Below, piece after piece: positions 16,937-54,134 of a DNA stretch of 64,000 nt; position 1 is the stretch's first letter, and each line of letters opens with the position of its first letter. Source of the stretch: Trichoplax adhaerens (lineage: Eukaryota > Animalia > Placozoa). Location: positions 2,348,180 to 2,412,179 of the forward strand of contig NW_002060948.1 in assembly GCF_000150275.1 (NCBI RefSeq), written 5' to 3'. Below the pieces are notes generated by a model that did not search any database, was not told where the DNA came from, and worked only from the letters and a program-made list of their open reading frames with translations. The translations under genes were made by a program, and so were the position numbers.

Positions 16937-17376
16937 TGTCACGGTACGAACTACCGTGAAGAAATAGTTATCTAAATTTGGTAAATATAATATAGTGATA
17001 TCATATTATAACTAGTTACTTACAATACGAATTACTCTAATTATAAATGTGTTACAGTAAATTTAATGCTGTGCTGTAATGTGCACTGAAATGATTCTGT
17101 GAATGGACATATTGTAGTCCGACTGTGAAAAATTAGTTAGTAGATGTTCTCACCTAAGTATTTTTATAAGATAACTCATGAATGTTAGCTGCTGTAGAAG
17201 GGTATATAAGCCCGTCAGATAGTTGAATAAAGTAGTTCTCAATTGTATAGTTGTTTTAACTAGAATCAAAGGCGTCTAAATTCTTGTGAGGTAGTTAAGT
17301 GATACTGAATCCCGGAGACTATAGTAATTTAGAGGTTTGTTTTACGTTATCCTTGTCATGAAGCTGGTTTGTGACA
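16937..17376 (+). mobile_element. Solo LTR of an LTR retrotransposon, copy 1
   Basis: 440 bp with TGTCAC...GTGACA termini and an internal TATATAAG followed by AATAAA. Near-identical to the copies at 36377 and 45664. No clean TSD (catta/acata). Confidence 0.85.
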
Positions 17377-30300: not shown

Positions 30301-31904
30301 TAAGATATAATCAAATGTTATACTCTAATGAACACGTCTTTTCTATGACTAAATCAAGTTATTAAATGTGAGTCAAGATGAGACGCGATGCCCGCTTTAT
30401 TTATACTTTTAATATGCACTCGAGTACTCTATGATTTTATTGCCCTACTGTCAACCTTCATCTAGACTTCCGAACAAGATTAATGCACGCAGAAATTTTT
30501 CAGTAGTTCCTAATATAATCTTTTTTGTTATTTACTGTCAATCTCTTAATGAGTATCTGAAGTTTTCTTTGCTTACCTATGCATTCTCTTTAGATTTCCG
30601 ATCAAATTTCGGGATATTATATTATCGGTTGCTATAAATCATGGGGGGATATCCGTAGAGAAGAAGCTTTTATGGGAATATTATCATGCTAACTCAACTT
30701 CATTGAGACAGGTCTATTTCAAAGCATTAGCATCTTCAAGAAATATCAAACTATTAAATAGGTATTGTGCCTCAATAGTTTTGATTTAATGATAGTTATT
30801 ATCGATAAAGTCTATAAATAACCATAATTTATTCTGAAACATAAATAGTGTTAATAAGGAATACTTTTATTAAAAATCATTGCTAGTAATATCAATTCCC
30901 TTGATATAACTTGAATATAAATTCAAGCTATTTTAACTTATTCAATCTTCGTCTGATTACGGCATTTAAGGTTGCTAAATATGATGTTGAATTTAAAAGA
31001 AGTCAAAATTGATGAAACTGGATCATTCCTGAAGTTGATATCAAAGAATCAAGTTGCATCTGAACCTCTTTGGAATTATTTTAAAAGCCATTATGCACTT
31101 TTCTATCAAAGGTTAGTTACAAAGATAAGCTTTTCAAATTGATCTTCTTAATTTCTTATTACAAAATACCTACATCCTTATAATTATAGAAGTACATTAT
31201 GCTATATTGCAATATGGCTACGTTTCAATCCTAATTGCCTACCATTTTATACAGTACTATTGTCATAGATAATTATATAAGTCATTTTTAAGTTGCTGCT
31301 TACAAATTAATGTAATTTTGATTAGGTTGCAATAGATGAACATATGTGATTATATTTCGGGCGTAGATTACATTACGTAACTCCGATGATGGTATGCTAA
31401 ATTATGTTGTTATTTATGATATTATGCCATAGGTATAAATTGGACACGGCTACTCTGGCTGATATTTTAAAAGAACTGGTCACTTATTTTAGTACTGAAG
31501 CTCAATACGATGATGTAAGCTGCAATAGAATCCAGTTTAATCTTTCACTGCATATTAGACTCAATGGTTTGAGGAATACAATTAGTATATTGCTTATAGC
31601 ATCGTTTAGTCACTGAAACTTTACTATAATTGCAATTTAGACCTAAAATACCCTATTTTGATAAATAGGTCAGAGTAAGGAATAAATTGTTAGCAAATGC
31701 TACGTGCTTGTACGTTATGTCGCTTATAAAATCTTGCACTTCTAAACGTAATTTTAGGTTGCGAATTTTTTTCGTTTACATAATGACATTGGAAGTGCGA
31801 AGTCTACTATTCCGCTTATTTTATCGAAAATCCGAGCACGTATTCAGTGGAAAAAATTTAACGAAATTACCGTGAAAAATTGGCTGAATGAGCGCGTATT
31901 ATAA
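24346..31904 (+). CDS. M1 family zinc aminopeptidase (aminopeptidase N/ERAP/APA-like), type II membrane anchored, ~18 exons
   Basis: N-terminal signal-anchor helix; [51 protein letters not shown]|[53 protein letters not shown]. The last exon ends [10 protein letters not shown] with TAA at 31902-31904. Confidence 0.95.
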
Positions 31905-33700
31905 AATAAACTGTACTTATGTTACTAGGATATTATTTATTACTTTCAGATACCTTCGAGGCGGTTACGATGGTTGATTCCAGTTGATTAATATTTATAA
32001 ATGAATAAAATGATCATAGTTAAAGCATTGCGATTTTATGTCTTGTAATAGCTGTATTGGCTATAACCTACAACAATAATTGTCTTTTTATAATTATTCT
32101 AAAGATTTATTTAATTGCTTTCGTAAATTTCCATAAGCAGTAGGAGAAGTTAAAAATGTAGAAATATTCGTTGATTGATTATAATATCAATTAATACTTA
32201 CGGACGGATATTGTTATCTCATTATGAGACAATTATAAAGATTGGATAAAACTAAAAATTCTATACAAAGATCAGAAAATATCATCAAAGATGTTATTTC
32301 CGATGATTAATTTTGTAACTGTTCGTTTGCAGGTATTTATTCATATATACCTTACTTCTTTCTTGTGTAAAAGTTGAGGAGCTTGCAAGCAGAAGGTTTA
32401 ATGTAACGGCAATAACAACTAGAGGCTTTATCTTTATTTATCTTATTCTAAGTATTTTTGTTAACGTATGGTTAAACATCTTTGTTTGCAAACTATCATT
32501 TTTATTCGTATTTACAAAAGCAATCCTGCGGACAAATCAAGTTTCAATAAATACTTTGAAATTGACTTTTTGGGGCTATGCAAGAGTATCCGGATATAGC
32601 TAATGCAGGTCGGTATTTTTAACTAGTTAATAGTCAAAAGATAACCATCTTGCAACAGCAATATACTGAGTAAATTCTGAATTGTTAAGCCCGCGTTTAA
32701 CCAGTTTGATGCCCCCATATTGTGATAATATTAAATCAAGTAGTTTTCAGATTTGAGGGTCAAATACTACTAAGCTTGCCTCAAAACTTAAATTGTTGTT
32801 AAAATATGATTCAAATACATACAGTATAATGATCCATATTAATCAGGAGTATGTATAGAACACTTATTTTCGTTTTTTAGTATAATATTTGCTGTTAGAT
32901 TTTAATAACCTTAAAAAACAAAAGACATAATGGTATTTTCGGATAGACACTTTAAGTAGATTATAACTTTACTAGAGTTAACAGATTGTTGATCAATAGT
33001 TAATGACATAATCATAATTTACTGTTAATGCTAATACTACAAATATTTGCAGCGTAGTTACGTCTAGCATGGCTAGTACTCAATAGCAATATCGATCTAT
33101 AAAATTGTTTGTCTTGAAGCAGTTCAAACTTGCTGACGAAATATTTGCCAAATTGAAAACTTATGATCACGGTTCAATTGTTACTGTACATTAAATCTTA
33201 TAGTGATGACAGCACTATTACAATGGTTTTTAATAGACAATATGTCAATTGACATACGTGAATATCTTCACAACTTTCGATTAAATTGACAATGAACTTT
33301 TCTTATTTACAAAATGACGCTTGCTAGCAATAATAAAGAGCAATTTCTATCTCTTATCGATTTAAATACCCACTAGGTAGAGCGAAAATGAGCTTCTATC
33401 TTATACGAAGATGACATCACCGGTAATAATTATATCCAAACTTAAAATGAGCTTTTATACTAAAGTAGCAATACTTCATTATTTATAACGAAGAAATATC
33501 GTATATTATCTTCGTTTTTGCTTCTGTGATAATTAATTTAACTATTAACAGTGCTGTGGATTACGCCAATCAATTCAAGATAGTTACACTTATTCCTAAA
33601 TTATAAGGGTAAACCGTCATTAATCAGGATCCTTGAAATGATACATATATATATATATATATGTATATGTCTATGTTTATGTCTGTCTACGAAATTAAAA

Positions 33701-36045
33701 TTACGATGTTACTTCCGTTAGCTCTTCTTCATGTGAGGTTTCCTAGAGTAGTAAATATTTATAGACAAGATATAATTACATATCAAGTAAATAGAACAAA
33801 ACTTTGAAATCAATTTGTAGTTAAATCTAAATACATATATTTACATCTTCCAACGATTGACAGCAACATACGTTGGCTGTTCGACTGATGCGAATAGCCG
33901 CATACAAGGATATAAAAAATCCAGGTACTAATATAGCGAAATATACGATTAGCATTGCTAACGCGGTTGAATAATGTAGGACAGCATTTTTGCTTATGTA
34001 CTCTACATAATCCCAGATAGCCAAAGGAAGGTTACACAAGCAACAACAACATGCAACCACTGACATAACCATGTGACAAGAAATCTAAAGGATAGAGCAA
34101 GCAATAGTTATCTATCTATCACCTATTGCGTCATAGATGTAATATATATATATATATATCACAAAGAATTAACAAAAAATATATTACCGTTTCTTCTTGT
34201 TGTTGATACATGGCATTAAGACCAATTTGACCAGTCGAGAGTAGCTAGTGAAACGTAATTTAAATACACGCAGCTTAGGCGTAAATAAATAATAAAAAAA
34301 AGTAGCAGAGTCATTAAAGTCATATAACAGGGCTACTTACAATACAACCGGTTACAAATGTCAAAAATGTGGAAGTGAGAGCAGAAAGTAAAGGCATTGA
34401 GATAAATCCAGCAGCAATTCCTAAACAGCCGTATATTGCCTGAGTCACTCCAGTTACTTTATGAATTCTGACTAAGCTATTCAATGTCAGGTATCTACTA
34501 AGTTGCAATGGAAAGAATAATGTTCCAGTTTCTTTACCGCGGCCAAAAGAAATTAGACTTGCGCAACTAAGGTTAACTAGTGCTAAAAGTAACGATCCTA
34601 GAAACATAACAAAGTTGATAGCTGTTCTTGTATATTGTGAAGTTGAATAGAAACTGTAGCAGATCATGCTAATGCTGCATAGGCACAGAAAGATATTTAG
34701 TCTGCCATAGATTAGTTGCCAGAATTTCTGTAAGATAAAAATAGAGGTCAAAAATGATTCCAGATTTCATCCACGCGGCTGTGCTGATCTAACATTAAGG
34801 TGGCTGTTAATACAGACGTAACCTATTGTACTTTAAAATATATCGTTGGATCGTCAAAACAAGTAGAATAATTATCTGTAAAGAAGGCTATCAATTAAAT
34901 CTTACAATATAAGAGACATTAGGTATCGTATAGACTAGTCTTCCTAAGGCACCCATAACTATGACCTATCCGAAAAAAAATCTAAATGAGAAGGATATTA
35001 TTCCATGATAGTAGATTGAAGTAACTTTGTAAGTTTTATCCCTTACCAAAGCACCAGAATAGTAGTTTGCCAGGGTATAATGGCGCTTAAAAAATATCAT
35101 GCCACCGACTCCCAAGATAACAGTAAAACAACCTGACAGAATGGCAACTAAACTCACAGCGTAGATATTGAACCAGTTAGGAGTTATATTAGGGCTGGAT
35201 GTATCGGATGAATTTTGATTGTTATCATCAGTGACATCTTGAATATTGATGATTAACAGCTTATGATAAAAGAAAATAAGTAGCAAAGATAGGCTAAGAC
35301 CAATAAACGATACGGCGACAATAATAGCGAACAGAATCGACTTGGGGTTAACGCTGACAACATGGGAAGCGCCAAAAACGTAGCTAACTTTGAATAAATT
35401 GATAAGACCTGCAAGGAATGCTGTACCCGATATAGCAATAATAGGGACAATCTACGTAAGGCATGATATAAAACAATAGCAATAAATCGATATTATTGTG
35501 TTGATAAGTCATTTATGTTATATTTACAGCTATAATTATTCTCAATCGGCACTACAAGTGTACAGTATCTATTTGATATCCTCGTATATTTATAAATGAA
35601 ATACGGTAGACTAGTCGAATTATATATGTATTGCAGACAGAAACTGTTACTGTTTCCGAAAACTAGATTAATAACAGACACAATAGTAGATTGCAATGTA
35701 AAACATCCCGACGAAAATAAAAGCAACTTGGTATGGAAATTCAGTTGTTATCGCAAATATCGAAGAGAAGGTTTAAATAATGCTATGACTTGAGATATAA
35801 AGCATAGCGATATGTGACAAGCATCGACTTACCAGGGCGGTCATCTGTCCATTGCGATTTAATATTAAGAGAATTCCTACAGAAATAAACTAAATAAACA
35901 AAAAGAGTAAATTGATTTTCAATCTGATTACTGTACTTGTGAGTAATTTAATTTAGTTTATCTTCCATTCGAAATTTAACTGCATACACAAACAGCAAAT
36001 GCGAAACAACGATCAATATTGTACGTTACCAATGATCGCGTATAT
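33701..36045 (-). CDS. Multi-pass membrane protein with tandem MS4A/CD20-like four-TM modules (two complete, one 5'-partial)
   Basis: Exons 35833-35876, 35047-35451, 34775-34822, 34341-34727, 34188-34244, 33845-34084 and 33701-33742 splice in frame and give at least 10 hydrophobic helices. MS4A-like TM1 (GVTQAIYGCLGIAAG), TM3 (MVMSVVACC) and TM4 with a Cys-rich tail (FISLYAAI..VCCC). The family assignment is by eye and the 5' end is unresolved. Confidence 0.7.
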
Positions 36046-36376
36046 TTCTCTGTTATACAGTACATACGGATTGAGTATTAAAAATATTTTTTTAATTTAT
36101 TTGATAATGGCAATGCAGTCTGTCTTATTCTTTCGCTATAAGTTACATTTTTCGACTCCATACACCACATACACTTGACTGCTATTCAAAATAGACATTT
36201 TGACGTTTAAAATTTGAAGAGATAGTAAATTTGTACGCGTATATGCTAGAACGTGTGCTCTTTAAGCTATATACAGTACTAGATATTGTACTTTCCATAA
36301 TTAATATTATTATTAATTGTGATTCAATCAGTAATTAATCAATTCGTTAACAAGATAGCGCCGCACCGTAAGATCC

Positions 36377-36817
36377 TGTCACGGTACGAACTACCGTGAA
36401 GAAATAGCTATCTAAATTTGGTTAATATAATATAGTGATAATATATTACAACTAGTTACTTACAATACGAATTACTCTAATTATAAATGTATTACAGTAA
36501 ATTAATTGCTGTGCTGTAATGTGCTCTGAAATGATTCTGTAAATAGACATATTGTAGTCCGACTGTGAAAAATTAGTTAGTAGATGTTCTCACCTAAGTA
36601 TTTTTATAAGATGACTCATGAATGTTAACTGCTGTAGAAGGGTATATAAGCCCGTCAGATAGTTGAATAAAGTAGTTCTCAATTGTATAGTTATTTTAAC
36701 GTAGAAGGAAAGGCGTCTAAATTCTTGTGAGGTAGTTAAGGGATACTGAATCCCGGAGACTATAGTAATTTGGATATTTGTTTTACGTTATCCTGATCAC
36801 GAAGCTGGTTTGTGACA
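36377..36817 (+). mobile_element. Solo LTR copy 2 with perfect 5-bp TSD (GATCC)
   Basis: GATCC|TGTCACGG...TTTGTGACA|GATCC; 441 bp; TATA box and AATAAA inside. Confidence 0.92.
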
Positions 36818-37661
36818 GATCCGTATAGCGATTTACTGCTAGTTATGATTTCTGTTGACTAATAGAGTATAATCGATATGTTTTGAAAGTAATCGAGCCT
36901 GATTTCGACATAAGCACGGATACTAGGCTATTCGATTGTTTTAGTTTACATCTTACGGATCAGTGTTGTCTTTTATTGTATGATGTTTTACGAATCTCCA
37001 GAATGTGTGCATTCAGCAAAAGAATAAATTCATCGAATGATTCATTAAACTGTAGAAATTGCAACGACGATGGTGCAATAGCAGTAGAGCTAAATCACAG
37101 TAGCCGTCGATTTAGCAAATAGAAATTTATCATTACACGATGATTAATATGGATGATACTTGAGTTGCTTGATAATTTTCTGATGCAGTAAGTTTTGGAA
37201 TGAATCAATCTACTGTATCAGTTACTGTACATAACAAAATTGTGCATCACTATTACTGATTAAGATATAATGAGAAGATGATTGGCTTTTATTGAAGAAT
37301 ATCACTCTACGCGTACGAGTACATTATAATCCAGTAAAGTGTCTCCGGTGCATTAAATTATATTAATTATCAGGATCATGATAACGATCCTTTCTAATGT
37401 TCTGTGATGATAGAGGAGGGGCGTATATGCTAGTCTACCTACTCTTTAAACCGGTACACAATCAGATAGGCTGAGGGTAAAATTAGCTATCGATTTCAAA
37501 TGACGCATTTTACAACTTTTCAAGGTAATGACATGAAGAAGTGTGATTGTGATGTTCTATTACGATAAGCAAACTACTGCATTGATTTGGACTATCAGCC
37601 ATGACTATGCTGATGGCATCCCAAAGTGTTATTTTATTAACATGTGGCACTTGTACAAAGA

Positions 37662-37734
37662 NNNNNNNNNNNNNNNNNNNNNNNNNNNNNNNNNNNNNNN
37701 NNNNNNNNNNNNNNNNNNNNNNNNNNNNNNNNNN
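37662..37734. other. Assembly gap (73 N)
   Basis: Run of n characters. Confidence 1.
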
Positions 37735-39756
37735 TGTTGATTATTTTCTAGTCATTGAACTTAGATAAGGTAATTTAATTTCAAAACGATCGACTTTATG
37801 AATTGATTGAAGATTGGTAGCTACCAATTTATAAAGCACTGTTGATAATATAACTAATCAGTACTCAGAACAAAGGTTCAATATCGCTCTCTCTTAATGC
37901 CATTTCAGTTTCTAGTAACGTTAGCCGTCAAGATCAGTTAGGTAGCTCTGACATGTCAATGACAGAAGTATCATGTTTTGAAGAGATGGACAAAAAAATG
38001 ACAACAATATGCTTATTGCAAGAAGGCATAATGCAGTAGGTGCATTGGAATAGAAGTCGGCTACAATATGATACAGTCTATTCAGCGATGGATGATAGGG
38101 AAGGATCGATTCGAGTAGGATTGAAATAATTGTACTTACTCGTTAGACTATAGAAGGAAATGATTGATTTGTATTGTACAGTACATCCATATTACAGGAA
38201 TAAGCTAGGAATCATTTTTAAGACAAAGTGATGGTATTCAATCTAGATATGATGTAGTGGCCATTAAAGTTTTATTATTGCTGGCATTGTCTCTATCATT
38301 TGCAATGATCATTTTCATCTTGTAGAGTGTTTCACTGCATACAGAATACTACAGTATACACTGCCTGTACATCATGATCAATATCAGCGCAATGTCAAGC
38401 CTTTTCCTGATTCACACTGCTCTTCCTAGCAGTACTCACTTCATGACATATGAACATGGTTGTCAAATAGGTGACGGGCGACTGATACAGTGCAGCACAA
38501 CGTCTACTCGTCTGTTGATCGAATATCAACTGTAATTCAATGAAGTTCTATTATATCGACAATATCAAACACTATTTTTAGGCTTATTTACAAACCAGTA
38601 TGGCTGGTATCGCTGGACCAAGAAAGAGAATATAAAACGATGATGTATCGTTGAAGACAATCCAACCAGCCACAGCTAAGCATGCATAGGTAATACCCAG
38701 AAGAATATTACCAATACTATATTTCAGATGAATTGACGCCATTTTGAAAACAAAGGGGATGAAAATTTCTCAGCACACTCTCACGTAGAGGCAATAGTTA
38801 GATAATGAGTTCTTTTAAAAGCGATGGCCATCGATGATGAACCCAATGTGATGTTCACCTCTCACTTACAAGCTGTGTAGACTATCCCTACCAACGAAAA
38901 CTCTTTCAATAATTAAGCTAATAAGAATGGTTGGGACTTTTTCTACCTGCCTAACTCCCAATGACGAACGCCTTGCAAGGTAAACATGAAGAGACCGCCG
39001 CCGTTTTCATCACACAGAAGATTCCATACTGAGCTTACAGTCGTACAGGGGGTGTACAGTACTCCCAAGTTTGGACATACAGTACGTACAACGAGACAGT
39101 GCGCACTGCGCAGTACCGTGAAAGCACCACCGGTCATGTGAACCGTTAACAGTGAACGTACTGTACCGTTGTAAACAGGTTTAGTATGCGTACACTGCGC
39201 AGTGCACATACTGTATGACGTATGGCATAGGTCATACCATGCACCTGGAAGGTCAATTCGCTCTACTGTACCAAGTCTAGATGGTACGGTACAGTCTGCA
39301 GTATTGTACTGTGCACTGTACAGTTGGCTTGGCAGGTGCTCCATCTGTCAGAGTTGATACAGTCATGGGTCACTAGAAATAAAATGTGGGCAGTATTTCT
39401 AGTGGTCCCTAATAGTAGTATAGAGTACTACCAGCTTATTTTTGGGGTGCTTTTTCGTCCATTATTTCCCCAATAATGACCTCGTTTTCCCCAGAGGAAA
39501 AGTAGAAAATGAGCTGCTAGCAGACCGTGGTACAGTGAACACTCACTGTACACTGTACTGTACAGTAAATCTGGATAAGGCAGCCAAAGAAAATGACTAC
39601 TGAGTCATGCAATCAGACGGACGGACACACTACAGTAAATTGAGGCAATTTCAACTGAGTTCAACTGGCCGGATCCCATCCTGTACAGTACCGTATAGTG
39701 TGTTGCAAATGTTTCCATACTGTACACGCTACACTGATATACAGTACCGTACAGTA

Positions 39757-46986: not shown

Positions 46987-49900
46987 ATATATTTTATGCA
47001 TTGACTTTACTCTGCCATGTTCAGGTATAAAGCTTATTAAAATGATTAATTACCATATTATACTTTATATTCTGTAACTAAAGGCTTTTGTTATAATCAA
47101 CAAATTTGACGAGGGAAAAAATATAAGTACTAATCATGTTTATTCATCAACTATTTAATTCATTAGCTGTCTACTTTGATTCTTAAGACCTATGCCTCAT
47201 CGTATTTACGTGAGTTAATGTTCCTTAATGAAGTGTTTATTTCACTCATAAGGAAAAATCAAAATTTATGATAGTGATTTACTGATTTTCTGTATTAAAT
47301 ATTAAATTGATTTATTTGTTTCCTTTAAAAAATTGCTTCTCTTATTATTGTGAACTTACGGAATATTTTCAGCGTGCCCATCAAATTGGACTACCATCCA
47401 AAATGGCACCAAATGTATACAAATATTCTTTGCTCCTAATAATGTATTCCGCTATAATTATTATGAATCGCTCGATATATGTAGTTCACATAATGCGAGC
47501 CTTCTAGTAGTAAAAAATGCAAGCGTATGGAATGAAACCTCATGGTTACTATCCTTACCAACGATGCAATATCACGGTTTATGGATTGGTTTAAGGTCGC
47601 AACACTCATTCAATAACATAAGTAATTATGCTTACAAATGGATTGATGGCTCGAATACCAGTTTATTCCATAACTGGCTAACTACCCCTTTAGTGGGCTC
47701 AATTTCAACAGAGTTGTGTGTTGCAACACTTAGACCTTTAGGATGGAAATGGTTTCAGTATAATTGTAATACAACCTTTCTTGATGGATTTATATGTGAA
47801 AAATGTGAGTTGCATGTAGAATTATTGACAGCAGGATTTAAGACTCCTGTTAATTTAAAGGATCTAATTCCAACATACAAATAAATAGATTTTATAGATC
47901 ATTTTAAATATTAGACTACTTTGCATAAATTTAATTACTTCAGAATTGCCAATGTAATAGTGCATTTAATATATATTTATTTCGAACGTAAGCAGAATTG
48001 GAAAATATTCTTTCTGTAAATAAAACTTGCTTCTAGATGTACTCGTAGTCTTAATACAAAGGTATCAATATAAATTATATCATGTTACAATTGGATATAT
48101 GGATTCAGCTACTGCATTTACTACATTTGCAATAAGCGAGTATACTATCCTGCTATGATCAAGCAATTACTTACTGGATTTCGTTTTATTTATTAAAGTT
48201 AGCTGCAAATTCTATATCGAATTGAGGCTGAAAATACGGTATCACTACTTTCCAAGTTGACCTTTAGAAAATTTTTTTCTAAATAGATTTGGTTGTCACT
48301 ATTATATAAGCACAAATTTTTAAAGTTCTGATAGGAACTCCTGTTCACTTTTGCTAAAATTGAATACAGAAAGTAGTTCTCCACAATAGCAATTTGCATC
48401 ATGCCTTACGATTCATACGTATGGAACCTATACTTAATTAGGAGATTAGAATTTTAAATTTATTTCCGTCATAAACTGAAGTAACTCTGAAAGTAACAAA
48501 AATGTTTATATGGATCATTTACCTAAAAGCTGTTATATATTTAAGATAGTTGAAAGTGCTATGAACACACAATATTATATAGAATTTGCGTTCGTACTGA
48601 TATTCTATTTTATTTATTATTTTAGTCGCGATACCCGTGAAGATTTCGCCTGAGGTATTATAAATATATTTCCATACGGCAAAGCAGTACTACTTACACG
48701 TACAACCTCTTCCATCATATACAGTGTATAATATCTTACCAGATCCATCTTTAAACTATTCTGTCCCTTATGATCATGTATGATAAATTGAAATACATCA
48801 TGTATAACTTTGATGCTTGCCAAATATACAACGATAGACTATAGTTGATACTGCTCTAAGAATATCTTCCTAATCTTTAATTTAAATTCAATTTAGAAAC
48901 ATCTGCAATATGTATCTAATACCATTAGAAATCAAATCTATGCCAATGAGACCAGTGATAAAAGTATTGGCCAGCTGGAGGCTGCTAGTCAGCTTTTGAG
49001 TAGAACATGGGAAAATATTGCCATCAGTCGCAAAAATGATACTCTTAAATTCATTGTATTAAATGTAATTTATTAAAGATTTCTTTATAATATGTTAAAT
49101 GAACAAATTAAAGGCATCCTCAACTTTATCATTATACTGATAACTGTTAATATTAACCAAATTTTATAAATCTCATGCTTTTAGGAATCTATTGAAATAA
49201 CTCAAGTTCTGTTTAATAAAGCTGAAACTTTAATAAGGGCTGGATGGAAGAATGTAATTATATTGATTTTAAATCGATTTTTCTGCAATTATTGTTTCCT
49301 TTTTTTTCTAAAAGCCATTAGAATCTTTAATAAAATTCCAACTGTACCTATATCTATAAAGGATATTAGATCAGAATAAGCTCTCACCCATTAATTTTAT
49401 TTAATTAGGCGTTAGATCCTATCCTGGCTACCATGAAGAATCTAGAAAAGTTAACAGTTCGGGTTGCTGGTACTCCATTAAGGAATCCGATTGTAATCCA
49501 AACAACTCGAATGGGTGAGGAAAATTCAAATAAAAGTTAATATAGCCAGTATAGGAAATCTGTTGTTATTGCGTTACAATAATTGAAGTGAATTGTCTAG
49601 TATTTTTTTCGAGAAAAAGATTTAAGTACATTAATGCAGTACTTTGCACTCTTACAAGAGTGTGCATATGTCAAATCATGAGAGAATAGCTGATTTTAAC
49701 GGTTATTAAAATGATCGTAAGCAAAGATGATAATATTTTTTTGCGTTTATAGGATGTTAAAGTTGTAGTTTTACAGTATATCCTAGTACGATCCTTTATT
49801 AGATTATATTCAAAATGCAGAGCAGAAGCAGTAATCTCTGCTTCTACAATTTCTGAGTAATTAATTAATAAGTAATTTATGTATAGCTGTACTTATAATT

Positions 49901-52900
49901 TTTATTAAATGCTTTCAAAGGCACATAGAAAGTGTCAGCTACCAACAACTGAAGTAGGCTCTGCAATCTACTTGTTACTAAATTTAAATCAAGCAATTAA
50001 GTCGAAATTATCGAGATTTTATAATCTTCTTATTCTTGGCATTAAAGTCTTAAATTTTTTATCTTTATTTTCTTATAAAATTTAGAATTAAGAATGGAAA
50101 AAATAGACACGCCATATTCTACCTACATCGGCCTTCAAACCACTACAAATAACTGGCTTCAATTACATTATGATACGAATTTAGGTAAATATAGAATCAT
50201 TAACTTCATAAATTACATTGCCGTACATGAAATTATTATAATTTCTTTATAATGATATTTAAAACCTAATATTAAATACAAGTACAAGATAATAATTTAA
50301 CCTATTCCTATATTATACTGATCTTTCTAGTTAATAAGTCCAATGTCGTTGTAATTATTTACAAGAACTACAGGTAAAATCGAATGTACTCATATAATTT
50401 GTTATTTCATAGTGTTCTGGATAAGTGGCTACTATAAGCGTGTAATTTGCATTACTTGATCTGTTGCAATGAAAATTTGATTATATTCGGATCAGTGCCA
50501 CGAATATTAATATAATACGTAATTTAGAATTCCTACTTTATTATTTTCTAAACGCTATTTTGGAAAATTAATAATTATGTTTACTTTTTGCAATGAAAAT
50601 TACAGATTGTTCTCAGAGTTACCTTCGGAATCTAGCTTAGACGTCAATACCAATATCGTTTCGTGCTCTTTAGTTTCAACGATTAATTCTTCGAAGATTC
50701 AGCCTACTGAATTTCAATATCTGCTTAGTAATTACAAAGTAAGTAGTTTCCTCTTCTTAAAATATCAAAAAGCCATAAAATATATATTGGTGAATACTCT
50801 TATACAGTATCAAAGCTGTATGGATATAATAATATGAAAGTATTGTATCATCCAGTAAGTGCTGTTTAATTTCATGTTAATAAAAATAGGAACGAGTAGC
50901 TTTGAGCGACATTCAGTGTTCATATTGGAATTTTAATCAAAGGTAAGTCTTATAACTGGAAGAAACTCTTATCCGTAATATTCTGCTCTGTTAACCCACT
51001 TGTAATATTATAATATGGAGATTAATTACAGTAGCCGTTCTTTTTTTCACTTAATCCAATACTTTAATTTCAGTAATTGGTCAACATCTGGTTGCAACTT
51101 TGTTCGCCAATACTACGGAAGAACCCATTGTAGATGTAACCATTTAACCCATTTTGCTGCGTTAATGATCGTAACCAACACAACGGTACGGGTTAATCTT
51201 AGCGTAAAGAATATGTTCAAGTTATACAAACACAGCGTTATCATCTCTGATTTAATTGTTTATATGACTTTCTACAACCAACGGTAGGTTAACCAGTATC
51301 ACTCGAAAATTTTGGGAACTATTGGGATTGCGGGTGTAGTAACATCAGCCGTTTTTTTACTCTTCACTCTGATTATCTTGGTGTCATTAAGGTAAAATTC
51401 TACCATTAATTCCATTATATTATGACACTTTGCATTATGTGTAGCAATTTCAGTTTTTCGAAGTGAAAATCAATCCTTTAGAATTATTTATTGTAATTGA
51501 TTTGCTAGGAATCTACGATCAGATCGTTTTTTTATACACAAAAATCTGTGTTTAGCATTACTACTAGCCAACGTTAGCGCTGTCATTACATCGCAAGCTT
51601 ATCTTCATCATGTAAGTATTAACATTTTTATGGTAAATGACGATTGCTTAATCGAATTATTGAGACTTGAGATTGAAACATTGATGATATTTATGGCGAC
51701 CTCATAAAGCCGTTTTTTAGATTATTACCGCAATCTAGCTAGATTACGCACTTATAAATTCGTCTTGGGCTGTGAATTTTTCTCAAAATTTTGATATTTC
51801 GATGCGATAAAATTAAAAACCCCGTACTAAAGATTTTGTTGAACTATATGAGTTTCTTCACTAAATTTGTCATCAAAAAATTACTTCCTTTTGATCTGAT
51901 ACTATTAATAATTCTTGTTCCTTAAGGTCAAAACAATCGTCGTTCTACTTCGCATACTGTCTAAAATTGTTGTAAATCAAATTTTTTGTTGTTTATTATG
52001 GTGTAATATAAATTAAAATTTTCTTATATATGTTGCTTTCACATTATGATACGTCATATTCGATTTTGAATAGATAGTTTAAATTTTATTTTCATAGGCG
52101 GTATAACAGATTTTGTTGAATTAAAACGGAATATTTAAAAATACTAGTATATTACCAAGTATCAACTGTATGAATTATAACTAATTTTAAGGTTAACGTT
52201 TCGATAGACTGCATGCAAAGTAAGTGCTATTATTCAACATTTCCTATTTACCGCTGCCTTTACATGGATGCTGGTAGAAGGTCTCCACCTTTACTTATTA
52301 ATGGTCAAAGTTTTTACTTCGGGACGCAGTAAAACGTTCCTATACGTGTTCGTCGGTTGGGGTATGTTATAAGTACTATATGATCTATCTACATATAAAT
52401 GTCGACCTAGCTAGCTTATTTAAACTTAAGTTTACTCACTAAGAGCTCTATGATAAATTACTAAAGTAGTTTTGCAATGGATTCGATCAGCTGATATTTT
52501 TCATTTCGATGTTTTCTTAACAGAAAATTTCATTTTAATCATTTAAAACTAATTTCAGGCATTCCAGTAATTATAGTCGCAACATCTATAGCCATTCGCT
52601 TTAATGATTATGGCTCCAATCGAATGTAAGATAAATCAATATGTATTCTCAATCAAAGATAGGGATTAAATATAGTATACGCTCAAACTACCTCTACGCT
52701 TCATGATCTGTTGATTTAGCTGCTGGTTATCGATAAAAAATGGATTGATATGGGCTTTTGTTGGGCCTGTAATTGCTATCATAACGGTAATTAAATCGAA
52801 TGACAACTTCTTGAGTCATTTATTTTTGTTTACATCGTAAATGAGGCACCATTGAACGCAAATTTTTTTATCTATATTTAACTTTTCTGCAGATCAATTT

Positions 52901-54134
52901 TGTGATATTTATCCTAGTTGCCAGAATAATATGTCGGTCTTCATCTCCCGTTGCAATTGAGCAGAAAACAGCCGATTTTGCGACTATAAAGTAGTTTTTC
53001 AAGTCAATTTCACATAGAATAATTATTTGGAAGAATACAATTCCTTTTATAAAGAAAATGATACCATATTATCGATATATAGGTCAACTTTGCGAGGTGC
53101 CGTCATACTGGTTCCAATCCTTGGATTAACGTGGATTTTCGGTGTACTTACCATTAATGAGCAGACGCTATTCTTTGATTATATCTTCGTAATAACTAAC
53201 TCACTTCAGGTAATCACAGCACTTTTATCAAATCAAATCTATATAAATAAGGCTAAATCTGTAGACGGTGCTCTATTGTTCATAATAGCTCCTCCCTCCC
53301 TATAGTTTGATATCTTGTAACTTCTTTATTTATGAACTATCATTATGTTAATTTCTAATAGAACTGATGTAATCAGTAATCTATATAACTTGCATCTTTC
53401 AGGGCTTCTTCATCTTTCTGTTTCATTGCGCCTTAAACAGCGAGGTTATCTTATTATATTGCTTTTATGGCGTCGTTTAATTTCAGTTTATCTTTTTTAC
53501 GCAGATTCTTCTTATATTAGATCGTCTTTTGATTATTACATTGAATACTGTTGCATATCCGTAAAAAGGGCAAATAAACGTCTTACATTCTATAAATTTC
53601 AGGTTCAAAATGCATTAAAAAACAGAATTGGACAATATGATGCTGTCAAGCAGTTAAATAATAGCCCTCAAAATAATTCAAACGGCAAGCAAGGGAAAAA
53701 TACCGGCAATAACGTGGTAATTAAGTCGTACTTAGCACTAGTACATGTTAAATGTTTTAGAGCTAAGGAATGATAAAAGTAAAAGTATTTCATTTATGTA
53801 TACTCTCGAGTGCTTCTTCGTAATTAATACAGTTAAATTCAATTCATTATTTGTAATTATACTAAAAATTAGCACAGTTTAAGATATTTATTAATTACTA
53901 ATTCAGAAATTAATTTTAGTTCTTAGTACATATGCTAGTCATTGGGTAGCATTTTACCTTTCGTCTATCATTGATTAAAAAATAAAGATTTTGGTATTTT
54001 AATGAATTTAGGAATCATGGAATGGACATCATTCGAGTACACTCAATAAATTTAAATCAGAATTTTATCAAAATAATACCGGTAATCATGATGACTTAGT
54101 AGTCGTAAGAAAATCATTTGAAAGTAAATCTTAG
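46987..54134 (+). CDS. Adhesion GPCR (class B2) with C-type lectin domain, GAIN/GPS and 7TM; paralog of the minus-strand gene; 5' end unresolved
   Basis: CTLD exon 47373-47804 (CPSNW..C..WIGL..CV..W..C..FICE); GAIN exons; GPS exon 51074-51185 (CRCNHLTHFAALM). 7TM motifs: IHKNL, FTWMLVEG, CWLSIKNGLIWAFVGP, VPILGLTWIFG, NSLQGFFIFLFHC. Ends KSFESKS* with TAG at 54132-54134. Confidence 0.92.

What the first reader, a model, noticed from the sequence alone, without database searches (positions are those of the whole stretch)
33701..36045. Concatenated triple MS4A/CD20-like protein (predicted ~12 TM) built from a repeated exon cassette
Seen: the exons splice in frame with a repeating pattern. A short exon finishes TM2 (GILLILNRNGQMTAL; VTSVLTATLMLDQHSR; LLSTGQIGLNAMYQQQEET), then a long phase-0 exon carries TM3-TM4 and, in two cases, a linker plus TM1-TM2 of the next module. 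The last module ends in a CCC tail. Known: MS4A/CD20 proteins are normally single 4-TM units that oligomerise, and some are implicated in Ca2+ influx and chemosensation. Inference: this is a covalently pre-assembled hetero-trimer, a candidate channel or chemoreceptor architecture inside a receptor-rich region. The ORF track only shows it as disconnected fragments.
Basis: partly seen in the sequence, partly recalled or inferred. Interest (0 to 1): 0.8.

Follow-up and report, generated by a model that had tools for sequence, protein, structure and literature searches.

The report
Placozoan triple four-helix membrane protein
This Trichoplax gene is spliced into one message for a 464-residue protein with twelve predicted membrane helices, arranged as three four-helix units that likely descend from the CD20/sarcospan kind of membrane organiser; a channel or receptor role is untested.

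Summary
It is the annotated, uncharacterised Trichoplax adhaerens gene TRIADDRAFT_57361. RNA contigs from 4 of 8 runs laid (4 studies) show the splice joints, and one contig spans all 8 exons. The missing 5' exon lies at 38962-38596. The 464-aa product has 12 hydrophobic peaks in a 4+4+4 pattern. All 7 introns are phase 0, and a 57/60/57-nt exon recurs at the same place in each unit. A 24%-identical Trichoplax paralogue keeps the full length. CD20 kinship is likely but unproven: Pfam CD20 does not hit, language-model neighbours are MLC1 and CD20 clusters (0.85-0.87, lead only), and unit 1 matched a sarcospan-like chain (Z 14.6) in one of two low-confidence models. Nothing supports a pore: there is no acidic residue in the helix cores. 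Tandem MS4A genes (2 or 6 units) are already predicted in chicken, opossum and platypus, and this scan noted a similar triple pair at another Trichoplax locus. Verdict: new three-unit variant, most likely a membrane scaffold or accessory subunit.

The parts
38596..38962 (-). Exon 1: 5' UTR plus CDS from ATG at 38742 (aa 1-49; helix 1 and first half of helix 2 of unit 1).
   Evidence: RNA contigs X5, X11, X14, X4; in-frame stops upstream of the ATG
35890..38595 (-). Intron 1, 2706 nt, phase 0; holds a high-copy 442-bp element and a 73-N assembly gap
   Evidence: joint 35889/38596 in 4 runs; GT..AG; N run 37662-37734
35833..35889 (-). Exon 2: 57-nt phase 0-0 short exon (aa 50-68; second half of helix 2 and the 2-3 loop, unit 1)
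35047..35451 (-). Exon 3: 405 nt (aa 69-203; helices 3-4 of unit 1, linker, helix 1 and half of helix 2 of unit 2), so the unit 1-2 fusion lies inside one exon
   Evidence: 100% match to P0001
34906..34965 (-). Exon 4: 60-nt phase 0-0 short exon (aa 204-223, unit 2).
   Evidence: joints 34963/35045 (cut +2) and 34727/34906 in X5, X11, X14, X4
34341..34727 (-). Exon 5: 387 nt (aa 224-352; helices 3-4 of unit 2, linker, helix 1 and half of helix 2 of unit 3)
34188..34244 (-). Exon 6: 57-nt phase 0-0 short exon (aa 353-371, unit 3)
33845..34084 (-). Exon 7: 240 nt (aa 372-451; helices 3-4 of unit 3 and the CCC motif at aa 444-446, a likely palmitoylation site)
   Evidence: joint 33743/33846 in X5, X14, X4; CCC kept in the related fragment P0005; the H1 gene model P0001 lacks these 9 residues
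33000..33742 (-). Exon 8: last 13 codons (stop ends at 33701) and a long 3' UTR that runs past 33000
   Evidence: X14 record 6 has 70 more letters beyond 33000; stop position

Best explanation
One spliced gene encodes a 464-residue protein of twelve predicted helices in three tandem four-helix units, likely made by triplication of a CD20/sarcospan-like exon cassette and likely working as a non-conducting membrane scaffold or accessory subunit. Shown: the single transcript, the exon layout, the hydrophobicity pattern, and a full-length paralogue in both Trichoplax genomes. Inferred: the units arose by old tandem duplication of a cassette (helix 1 plus half of helix 2 | short phase-0 exon | helices 3-4), with the intron between units lost. 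Predicted: both ends and the two long linkers face the cytoplasm, the outer loops are short, and the CCC after helix 12 is palmitoylated. Inferred function: like CD20, FcERI-beta, sarcospan and MLC1, each bundle would bind partner membrane proteins through its helices. Fusing three divergent bundles would fix their stoichiometry and order, so one chain could chaperone, cluster or tune a receptor, channel or adhesion complex without itself conducting ions.
For: RNA joints in 4 studies. 7 of 7 introns are phase 0 (chance 0.4-0.8% if the phase-0 share is 45-50%, an assumed value). Short exons of 57/60/57 nt start at aa 50/204/353, each mid-helix 2 of a unit. Long loops (39 and 31 aa; paralogue 65 and 30) follow helices 4 and 8 only, and the helix 6-7 loop is 7 aa. 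The paralogue aligns over 6-438 (E 2.4e-6; 112/474 identical). ESM Atlas top hits are MLC1 (0.87, 181 shared features) and CD20-bearing clusters (0.85); unit 2 of the paralogue gives the same families. VIA on model 2: residues 5-144 match dystrophin-glycoprotein-complex chains 8yt8_S (Z 14.6, rmsd 2.8, 138 aligned) and 9c3c_n (Z 14.1), then 8k7t_B (Z 11.7) and CD20 6y92_A (Z 10.6). That the first two chains are sarcospan and 8k7t_B is FcERI-beta is recalled, not printed. The MS4A motif FIISGSLS (PMC11663944) scores rank 3, 1 and 12 of 457 positions at the three short-exon starts, and the paralogue's three-motif chain beats 299 of 300 local shuffles. CD20 intron 5 is phase 0 after 'SRKCL' (PMC4774009 Table 1); that this is the end of the helix 2-3 loop is recalled. 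No D/E in the 12 helix cores. K+R near the membrane is 10 vs 6 and 11 vs 4 in favour of N-in (weak).
Against: No Pfam CD20 hit for P0001, the paralogue, the fragments or single exons. Unit-to-unit similarity is at the noise level: against local shuffles only the global unit 1-2 pairing stood out (p 0.018; the other five tests p 0.10-0.90), and hhalign probability is at most 1.3%, with reversed unit 3 scoring as high against unit 2. The motif chain in this protein itself is no better than shuffles (221 of 300 reach it). Both models are low confidence (pLDDT 46.2 and 41.6). Model 1 gave only generic bundles (best Z 9.9). In model 2, Z of 11-12 also came from MARVEL, tetraspanin and designed bundles, and units 2-3 matched unrelated helical bundles. 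Atlas scores under 0.9 are leads only. No homologue outside Trichoplax and three unnamed fragments was found. No partner or function was tested.
Confidence: 0.5

Rival explanations
1. The three units pack with pseudo-three-fold symmetry round a central pore and form an ion channel, or a ligand-gated chemosensor like the necklace MS4As.
For: Three units in one chain. MS4A and TMEM176 proteins are reported as channels or chemosensors (PMC11663944 passages). MLC1, the top Atlas neighbour, is reported as a homotrimer (PMC8633789 Discussion). An Asn in helix 8 (N275) is kept in the paralogue.
Against: No acidic residue in the helix cores; the paralogue's two glutamates are not shared. CD20 is solved as a homodimer (bioRxiv 10.64898/2026.08.19.745820 passage), and its channel role is called unclear (PMC7271567). 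Known tandem MS4As have 2 or 6 units, read by their authors as dimers or multiples of dimers. The outer loops are short (3-25 aa).
Confidence: 0.17
2. The protein is three four-helix units, but of another tetraspan lineage (MARVEL, tetraspanin or claudin-like) or of a placozoan-only family, and the CD20 likeness is convergent.
For: No Pfam or phmmer link to CD20. Synaptophysin (Z 12.1), uroplakin (11.9) and a designed maquette (12.4) lie within about 2-3 Z of the top hit. PMC2826416 judged invertebrate MS4A-like similarity to be unspecific.
Against: Two Atlas queries return only MLC1/CD20-type families among the named rows shown. The top two fold rows are sarcospan-like. The FIISGSLS-like stretch sits exactly at the short-exon starts. 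No large cysteine-rich outer loop as in tetraspanins.
Confidence: 0.23
3. It is a 12-helix solute transporter (MFS-like 6+6) and the three-fold exon pattern is accidental.
For: 12 helices; the best Foldseek rows for model 2 were POT, LacY and SUR transporters, at E 0.05-0.3.
Against: None reached E 0.001, and rmsd was 11-31 A. The helix 6-7 loop is 7 aa in both paralogues, where MFS has a long central loop (recalled), while long loops follow helices 4 and 8. No transporter Pfam or NCBIfam hit.
Confidence: 0.07
4. The long protein is an artefact of joining three neighbouring small genes.
For: The scan noted an array of single-unit CD20-like genes elsewhere in Trichoplax (e1-7319304, unchecked). 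Short-read contigs are not single molecules. A few low-depth unspliced pieces exist.
Against: Both unit-to-unit junctions lie inside single exons with an open frame. One contig spans all exons. Two independent genome annotations give the same long protein, and the paralogue has the same length and layout.
Confidence: 0.03

Closest known systems
MS4A/CD20 family (Pfam PF04103; CD20, FcERI-beta)
   Same: Predicted four-helix unit with short loops; FIISGSLS-like stretch in helix 2; phase-0 intron at the end of the helix 2-3 loop as for CD20 intron 5 (its position on the helices is recalled); cysteine(s) just after the last helix (CD20 C220 is palmitoylated); fold rows Z 10.6-11.7 for unit 1.
   Different: Three units per chain; no Pfam CD20 hit; no cysteine pair in the second outer loops; no ITAM; no intron inside the helix 3-4 stretch, whereas CD20 has intron 6 at nt 573.
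Tandem MS4A genes of chicken, opossum and platypus (PMC2826416, section read)
   Same: Several MS4A-type units fused in one predicted polypeptide.
   Different: Those have 2 or 6 units that are recognisably MS4A and rest on genomic clones. Here there are 3 units, diverged to the noise level, supported by RNA, in a non-bilaterian that the paper's survey would class as lacking MS4A.
Sarcospan (chains 8yt8_S, 9c3c_n; name recalled)
   Same: Best structural match to unit 1 in one model (Z 14.6, rmsd 2.8, 138 aligned); an accessory tetraspan of a membrane complex.
   Different: Single unit; 8-9% identity; the match rests on a pLDDT ~45 model and did not recur in the other model.
MLC1 (Pfam PF27925)
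   Same: Top ESM Atlas neighbour (0.87); multi-unit-length helical membrane protein with both ends inside and a long serine-rich loop after helix 4; one Atlas cluster carries both PF27925 and PF04103.
   Different: 8 helices, not 12; a homotrimer of chains; the clusters shown are mostly chordate; no alignment-level test was possible. That MLC1 is two CD20-like units is my inference.
Trichoplax paralogue TRIADDRAFT_55052 / TrispH2_005743
   Same: Same 12-helix, 4+4+4 layout over the whole length, 24% identical.
   Different: Longer first linker and tail; clearer MS4A-like motifs in unit 2; its intron positions were not checked.

Membership tests
MS4A / CD20-like (PF04103) | Match to the Pfam CD20 profile | tested here: not met
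   0 families for P0001 at E<=10; no CD20 row for four exon translations or for P0003-P0006. HMMER filters drop weak matches.
MS4A / CD20-like (PF04103) | Four membrane helices per unit, ends inside, short loops | tested here: met
   12 hydropathy peaks and 12 long helices in both models; loops grouped 4+4+4; weak positive-inside bias. Predicted, not measured.
MS4A / CD20-like (PF04103) | Motifs LGAXQI, GYPFWG, FIISGSLS in order (as listed in PMC11663944) | tested here: inconclusive
   This protein: 221 of 300 shuffles reach the best chain. Paralogue: 11 of 300 (best unit) and 1 of 300 (sum of three). FIISGSLS-like score ranks 3, 1, 12 of 457 at the short-exon starts.
MS4A / CD20-like (PF04103) | CD20/FcERI-beta/sarcospan bundle fold | tested here: inconclusive
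   Unit 1 Z 14.6 to a sarcospan-like chain and 10.6 to CD20 in model 2; not in model 1; no Foldseek hit at E<=0.001; units 2-3 were not folded alone.
MS4A / CD20-like (PF04103) | Shared gene structure: short phase 0-0 exon for the end of helix 2 and the 2-3 loop | tested here: inconclusive
   Here 57/60/57 nt. CD20 introns 3, 5 and 6 are phase 0 at nt 160, 337 and 573. The position of CD20 intron 4 (a 57-nt exon 5) is recalled; searches did not find it in print.
MS4A / CD20-like (PF04103) | Cysteine pair in the second outer loop (most, not all, members) | tested here: not met
   No cysteine in loops 86-110, 247-263 or 395-412.
MLC1 (PF27925) | Eight helices and match to the MLC1 profile | tested here: inconclusive
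   12 helices, not 8; Atlas score 0.85-0.87 is a lead; no MLC1 row in the Pfam copy scanned, which may predate that model.
Calcium-selective or ligand-gated channel | Conserved acidic or polar pore-lining residues; symmetric packing round a pore | tested here: inconclusive
   0 D/E in the 12 helix cores; packing cannot be read from models with pTM 0.29-0.32; conductance is not testable here.
MFS transporter | 6+6 helices with a long central loop; MFS profile match | tested here: not met
   Helix 6-7 loop 7 aa in both paralogues; no Pfam or NCBIfam hit.

The most novel reading that the evidence does not exclude
Placozoans carry a small family of covalent hetero-trimers of the MS4A/sarcospan/MLC1 superfamily that still keep the vertebrate MS4A exon layout (a ~57-nt phase-0 exon in helix 2). 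This would push that gene structure back before the placozoan-bilaterian split. The three unlike bundles close round a common axis to make a channel or chemosensor in an animal without neurons, a single-chain model for how MS4A/MLC1 oligomers conduct or sense.
Probability: 0.13. Interest if true: 0.78.

Novelty: new variant of a known kind. Interest (0 to 1): 0.45.

Why it matters
If the CD20 link holds, this is an RNA-supported three-unit concatemer of a family whose oligomeric state and channel role are long disputed. Predicted natural tandems so far have 2 or 6 units, so an odd count argues that dimers are not the only working form. It would also place the family's exon layout in a non-bilaterian, against the published view that invertebrates lack MS4A-like genes (PMC2826416), although a later survey already lists CD20-like proteins as expanded across metazoans (PMC5620054). 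A single chain with fixed stoichiometry is a convenient object for cryo-EM and electrophysiology. The corrected exon structure also fixes the H1 gene model, which drops the conserved CCC.

Tried and rejected
The H1 annotation's earlier donor in exon 7: rejected by the joint in X5, X14 and X4. Complex prediction of unit 2 with unit 3: no answer (score 0.00; alignments were not used), no evidence either way. Foldseek against PDB for both models: nothing at E<=0.001. Sequence search of PDB with the family profile: only prostanoid receptors at E 0.05-0.3 on a two-helix stretch, taken as chance. Homologue searches: A1 profile, 5 hits among 7998 candidates, all already known; paralogue unit 2 against shorter proteins, 0 of 38; metagenome contigs, 0 of 43 pattern matches confirmed. 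P0007 (repetitive, 732 aa) came up and was dropped as a spurious repeat match before alignment A1. Aligning exon 3 to exon 5 gave no sensible register. No DNA-level repeat remains between the units; no Rfam hit. N-glycosylation sequons in linker 1 could suggest an outside location, but their number is at chance (P 0.36, 0.36, 0.71). A second VIA look at Foldseek's top chains was not obtained. No genome was held, so family size and the paralogue's introns were not checked. Runs X9, X15 and X18 were too thin to show joints.

Full report
Identity. The window is AT-rich eukaryotic DNA. Exon 35451-35047 matches Trichoplax adhaerens TRIADDRAFT_57361 at 100% (P0001, 455 aa); its cluster also holds TrispH2_005094 of Trichoplax sp. 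H2 (P0002, 464 aa). Both are annotated as uncharacterised. No whole genome was held for this window.

Gene structure. I laid contigs of 8 of the 20 runs listed. X5, X14 and X4 show all seven joints and X11 shows six; these are four studies. X14 record 6 (2386 nt) runs through every exon and has no depth in intron 1 outside a repeat. X1 behaves as DNA (flat depth, none of the seven joints); X9, X15 and X18 gave only thin unspliced pieces. With ends set to GT..AG, the coding exons on the minus strand are 38742-38596, 35889-35833, 35451-35047, 34965-34906, 34727-34341, 34244-34188, 34084-33845 and 33742-33701. They give a 464-aa frame with stops upstream of the ATG, differing from P0002 at 2 residues. 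The H1 model drops nine residues including the CCC, which RNA and the related fragment P0005 keep. These are short-read contigs, not single molecules. However, both unit-to-unit junctions lie inside single exons, so the fusion does not depend on phasing.

Architecture. Hydropathy gives 12 peaks, and both AlphaFold models show 12 long helices. All seven introns are phase 0. Short exons of 57, 60 and 57 nt start at residues 50, 204 and 353, each in the middle of the second helix of a unit, and end just before the third. Long loops follow helices 4 and 8 only (39 and 31 aa; 65 and 30 in the paralogue), while the helix 6-7 loop is 7 aa, which fits 4+4+4 and not 6+6. Against this, the units have almost no sequence likeness left. 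Pairwise scores are near shuffle level except for a weak unit 1-2 signal, and profile comparison gives probabilities of at most 1.3%, matched by a reversed control. The triplication is therefore inferred mainly from gene structure and loop pattern.

Relatives. A search of 1.84 billion representatives gave 5 hits: three unnamed fragments 68-75% identical, one full-length Trichoplax paralogue (TrispH2_005743 / TRIADDRAFT_55052; E 2.4e-6), and one repetitive protein that I dropped. The paralogue aligns across all three units at 24%. Further searches found nothing new. Only one copy lies in this window. The scan's earlier notes describe a tandem pair of similar triple proteins (e1-7319878) and an array of eight single-unit genes (e1-7319304) on other Trichoplax DNA. 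I could not check these, and sequence look-ups with P0002 and P0009 returned nothing.

Is it CD20-like? Pfam CD20 does not hit, so I do not file it as an MS4A member. Four weaker lines point the same way. (i) ESM Atlas: MLC1 clusters at 0.86-0.87 and CD20-bearing clusters at 0.85 for the whole protein, and the same families for unit 2 of the paralogue; all are below 0.9 and so leads. (ii) Fold: in the alignment-based model, unit 1 matches 8yt8_S (Z 14.6, rmsd 2.8, 138 aligned) and 9c3c_n (Z 14.1), which I recall as sarcospan, with IgE-receptor chains at 10.8-11.7 and CD20 at 10.6. Synaptophysin, uroplakin and a designed bundle score 11.9-12.4, and the model has pLDDT 41.6. The single-sequence model gave only generic bundles. 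(iii) Motifs listed in PMC11663944 (passages): the helix-2 motif scores rank 3, 1 and 12 of 457 at the three short-exon starts, and the paralogue's chain beats 299 of 300 shuffles, but this protein's own chain does not beat shuffles. (iv) Introns: CD20 has phase-0 introns at nt 160, 337 and 573 (PMC4774009, passages with Table 1). I recall that nt 337 falls at the end of the helix 2-3 loop, as here, and that CD20 exon 5 is 57 nt; I could not find the latter in print. Taken together I put CD20-superfamily ancestry near 0.7.

How it likely works. The helix cores hold no aspartate or glutamate and only two arginines, at helix ends; the outer loops are 3-25 aa with no cysteine pair; there is no ITAM. 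Lysine and arginine weakly favour both ends inside, and the linker sequons are at chance. A CCC follows the last helix, where CD20 has a palmitoylated cysteine (PMC13226681, passage). This anatomy fits a lipid-anchored scaffold or accessory subunit best, as for FcERI-beta, which traffics its receptor through helix 1 (PMC8776166, passages). Fusing three divergent bundles would fix their ratio and order. All functional steps are inferred. The channel or chemosensor reading stays open, since MS4A and TMEM176 currents and chemosensing are reported and MLC1 is a trimer (PMC8633789, Discussion). But CD20 is solved as a dimer (bioRxiv 10.64898/2026.08.19.745820, passages), its channel role is called unclear (PMC7271567, passages), and my models cannot show packing.

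Novelty. Tandem MS4A genes with 2 or 6 units were predicted in chicken, opossum and platypus, and the same paper concluded that invertebrates lack MS4A-like genes (PMC2826416, passages and section 13). A later survey lists the CD20-like family among expansions found throughout metazoans (PMC5620054, passages). I saw no paper on a three-unit form or on this gene. One search gave one unrelated listing. One search listed 15 of 2,381 papers, none naming the gene identifiers, which is a weak check. Searches showed no listing that links MLC1 to the MS4A fold, and bioRxiv 10.1101/2025.10.08.681078 (passages) does not mention MS4A or CD20. Subscription papers and supplementary gene tables of placozoan atlases were not searched and may bear on this. 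Verdict: a real, expressed, already annotated but uncharacterised gene; a new three-unit variant of a known kind; interest 0.45.

Noticed in passing
window:36376-36817: A 442-bp interspersed element in intron 1 with short inverted ends (TGTCAC..GTGACA) and GATC on both flanks. Two more copies lie at 16937-17376 and 46106-45664 (93-95% identical), and its depth is about 1000 times the single-copy level in the DNA-like run X1. Likely a solo LTR or MITE of very high copy number.
   Followed up: partly
window:33845-33871: The H1 gene model (P0001) lacks these nine codons, including the CCC; RNA joints in three runs and the H2 model keep them.
   Followed up: yes
window:24346-32869: An M1 aminopeptidase gene on the + strand (Peptidase_M1_N, weak ERAP1_C). 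A contig of X4 covers 31758-32869, so its 3' end likely lies tail to tail with this gene's 3' UTR.
   Followed up: partly
window:4461-10968 (-) and 47354-53305 (+): Two adhesion-GPCR-like genes with C-type lectin domains; GPS and 7tm_2 hits in the second, a weak 7tm_2 hit in the first. Exon structures were not built.
   Followed up: partly
window:60355-61557 (-): A rhodopsin-class GPCR in one long open frame (7tm_1, E 3e-44).
   Followed up: no
window:37735-38625: A 1070-nt contig at depth 39 in RNA run X5 covers the 5' part of intron 1 and overlaps exon 1. It may be retained intron, pre-mRNA or DNA; X14 has no cover there.
   Followed up: no
window:39025-40500 and 596-1074: Low-complexity TACAG/CTGTA-rich and tandem-like repeats upstream of the gene and at the window's start give long spurious ORFs and raised depth in X1.
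   Followed up: no
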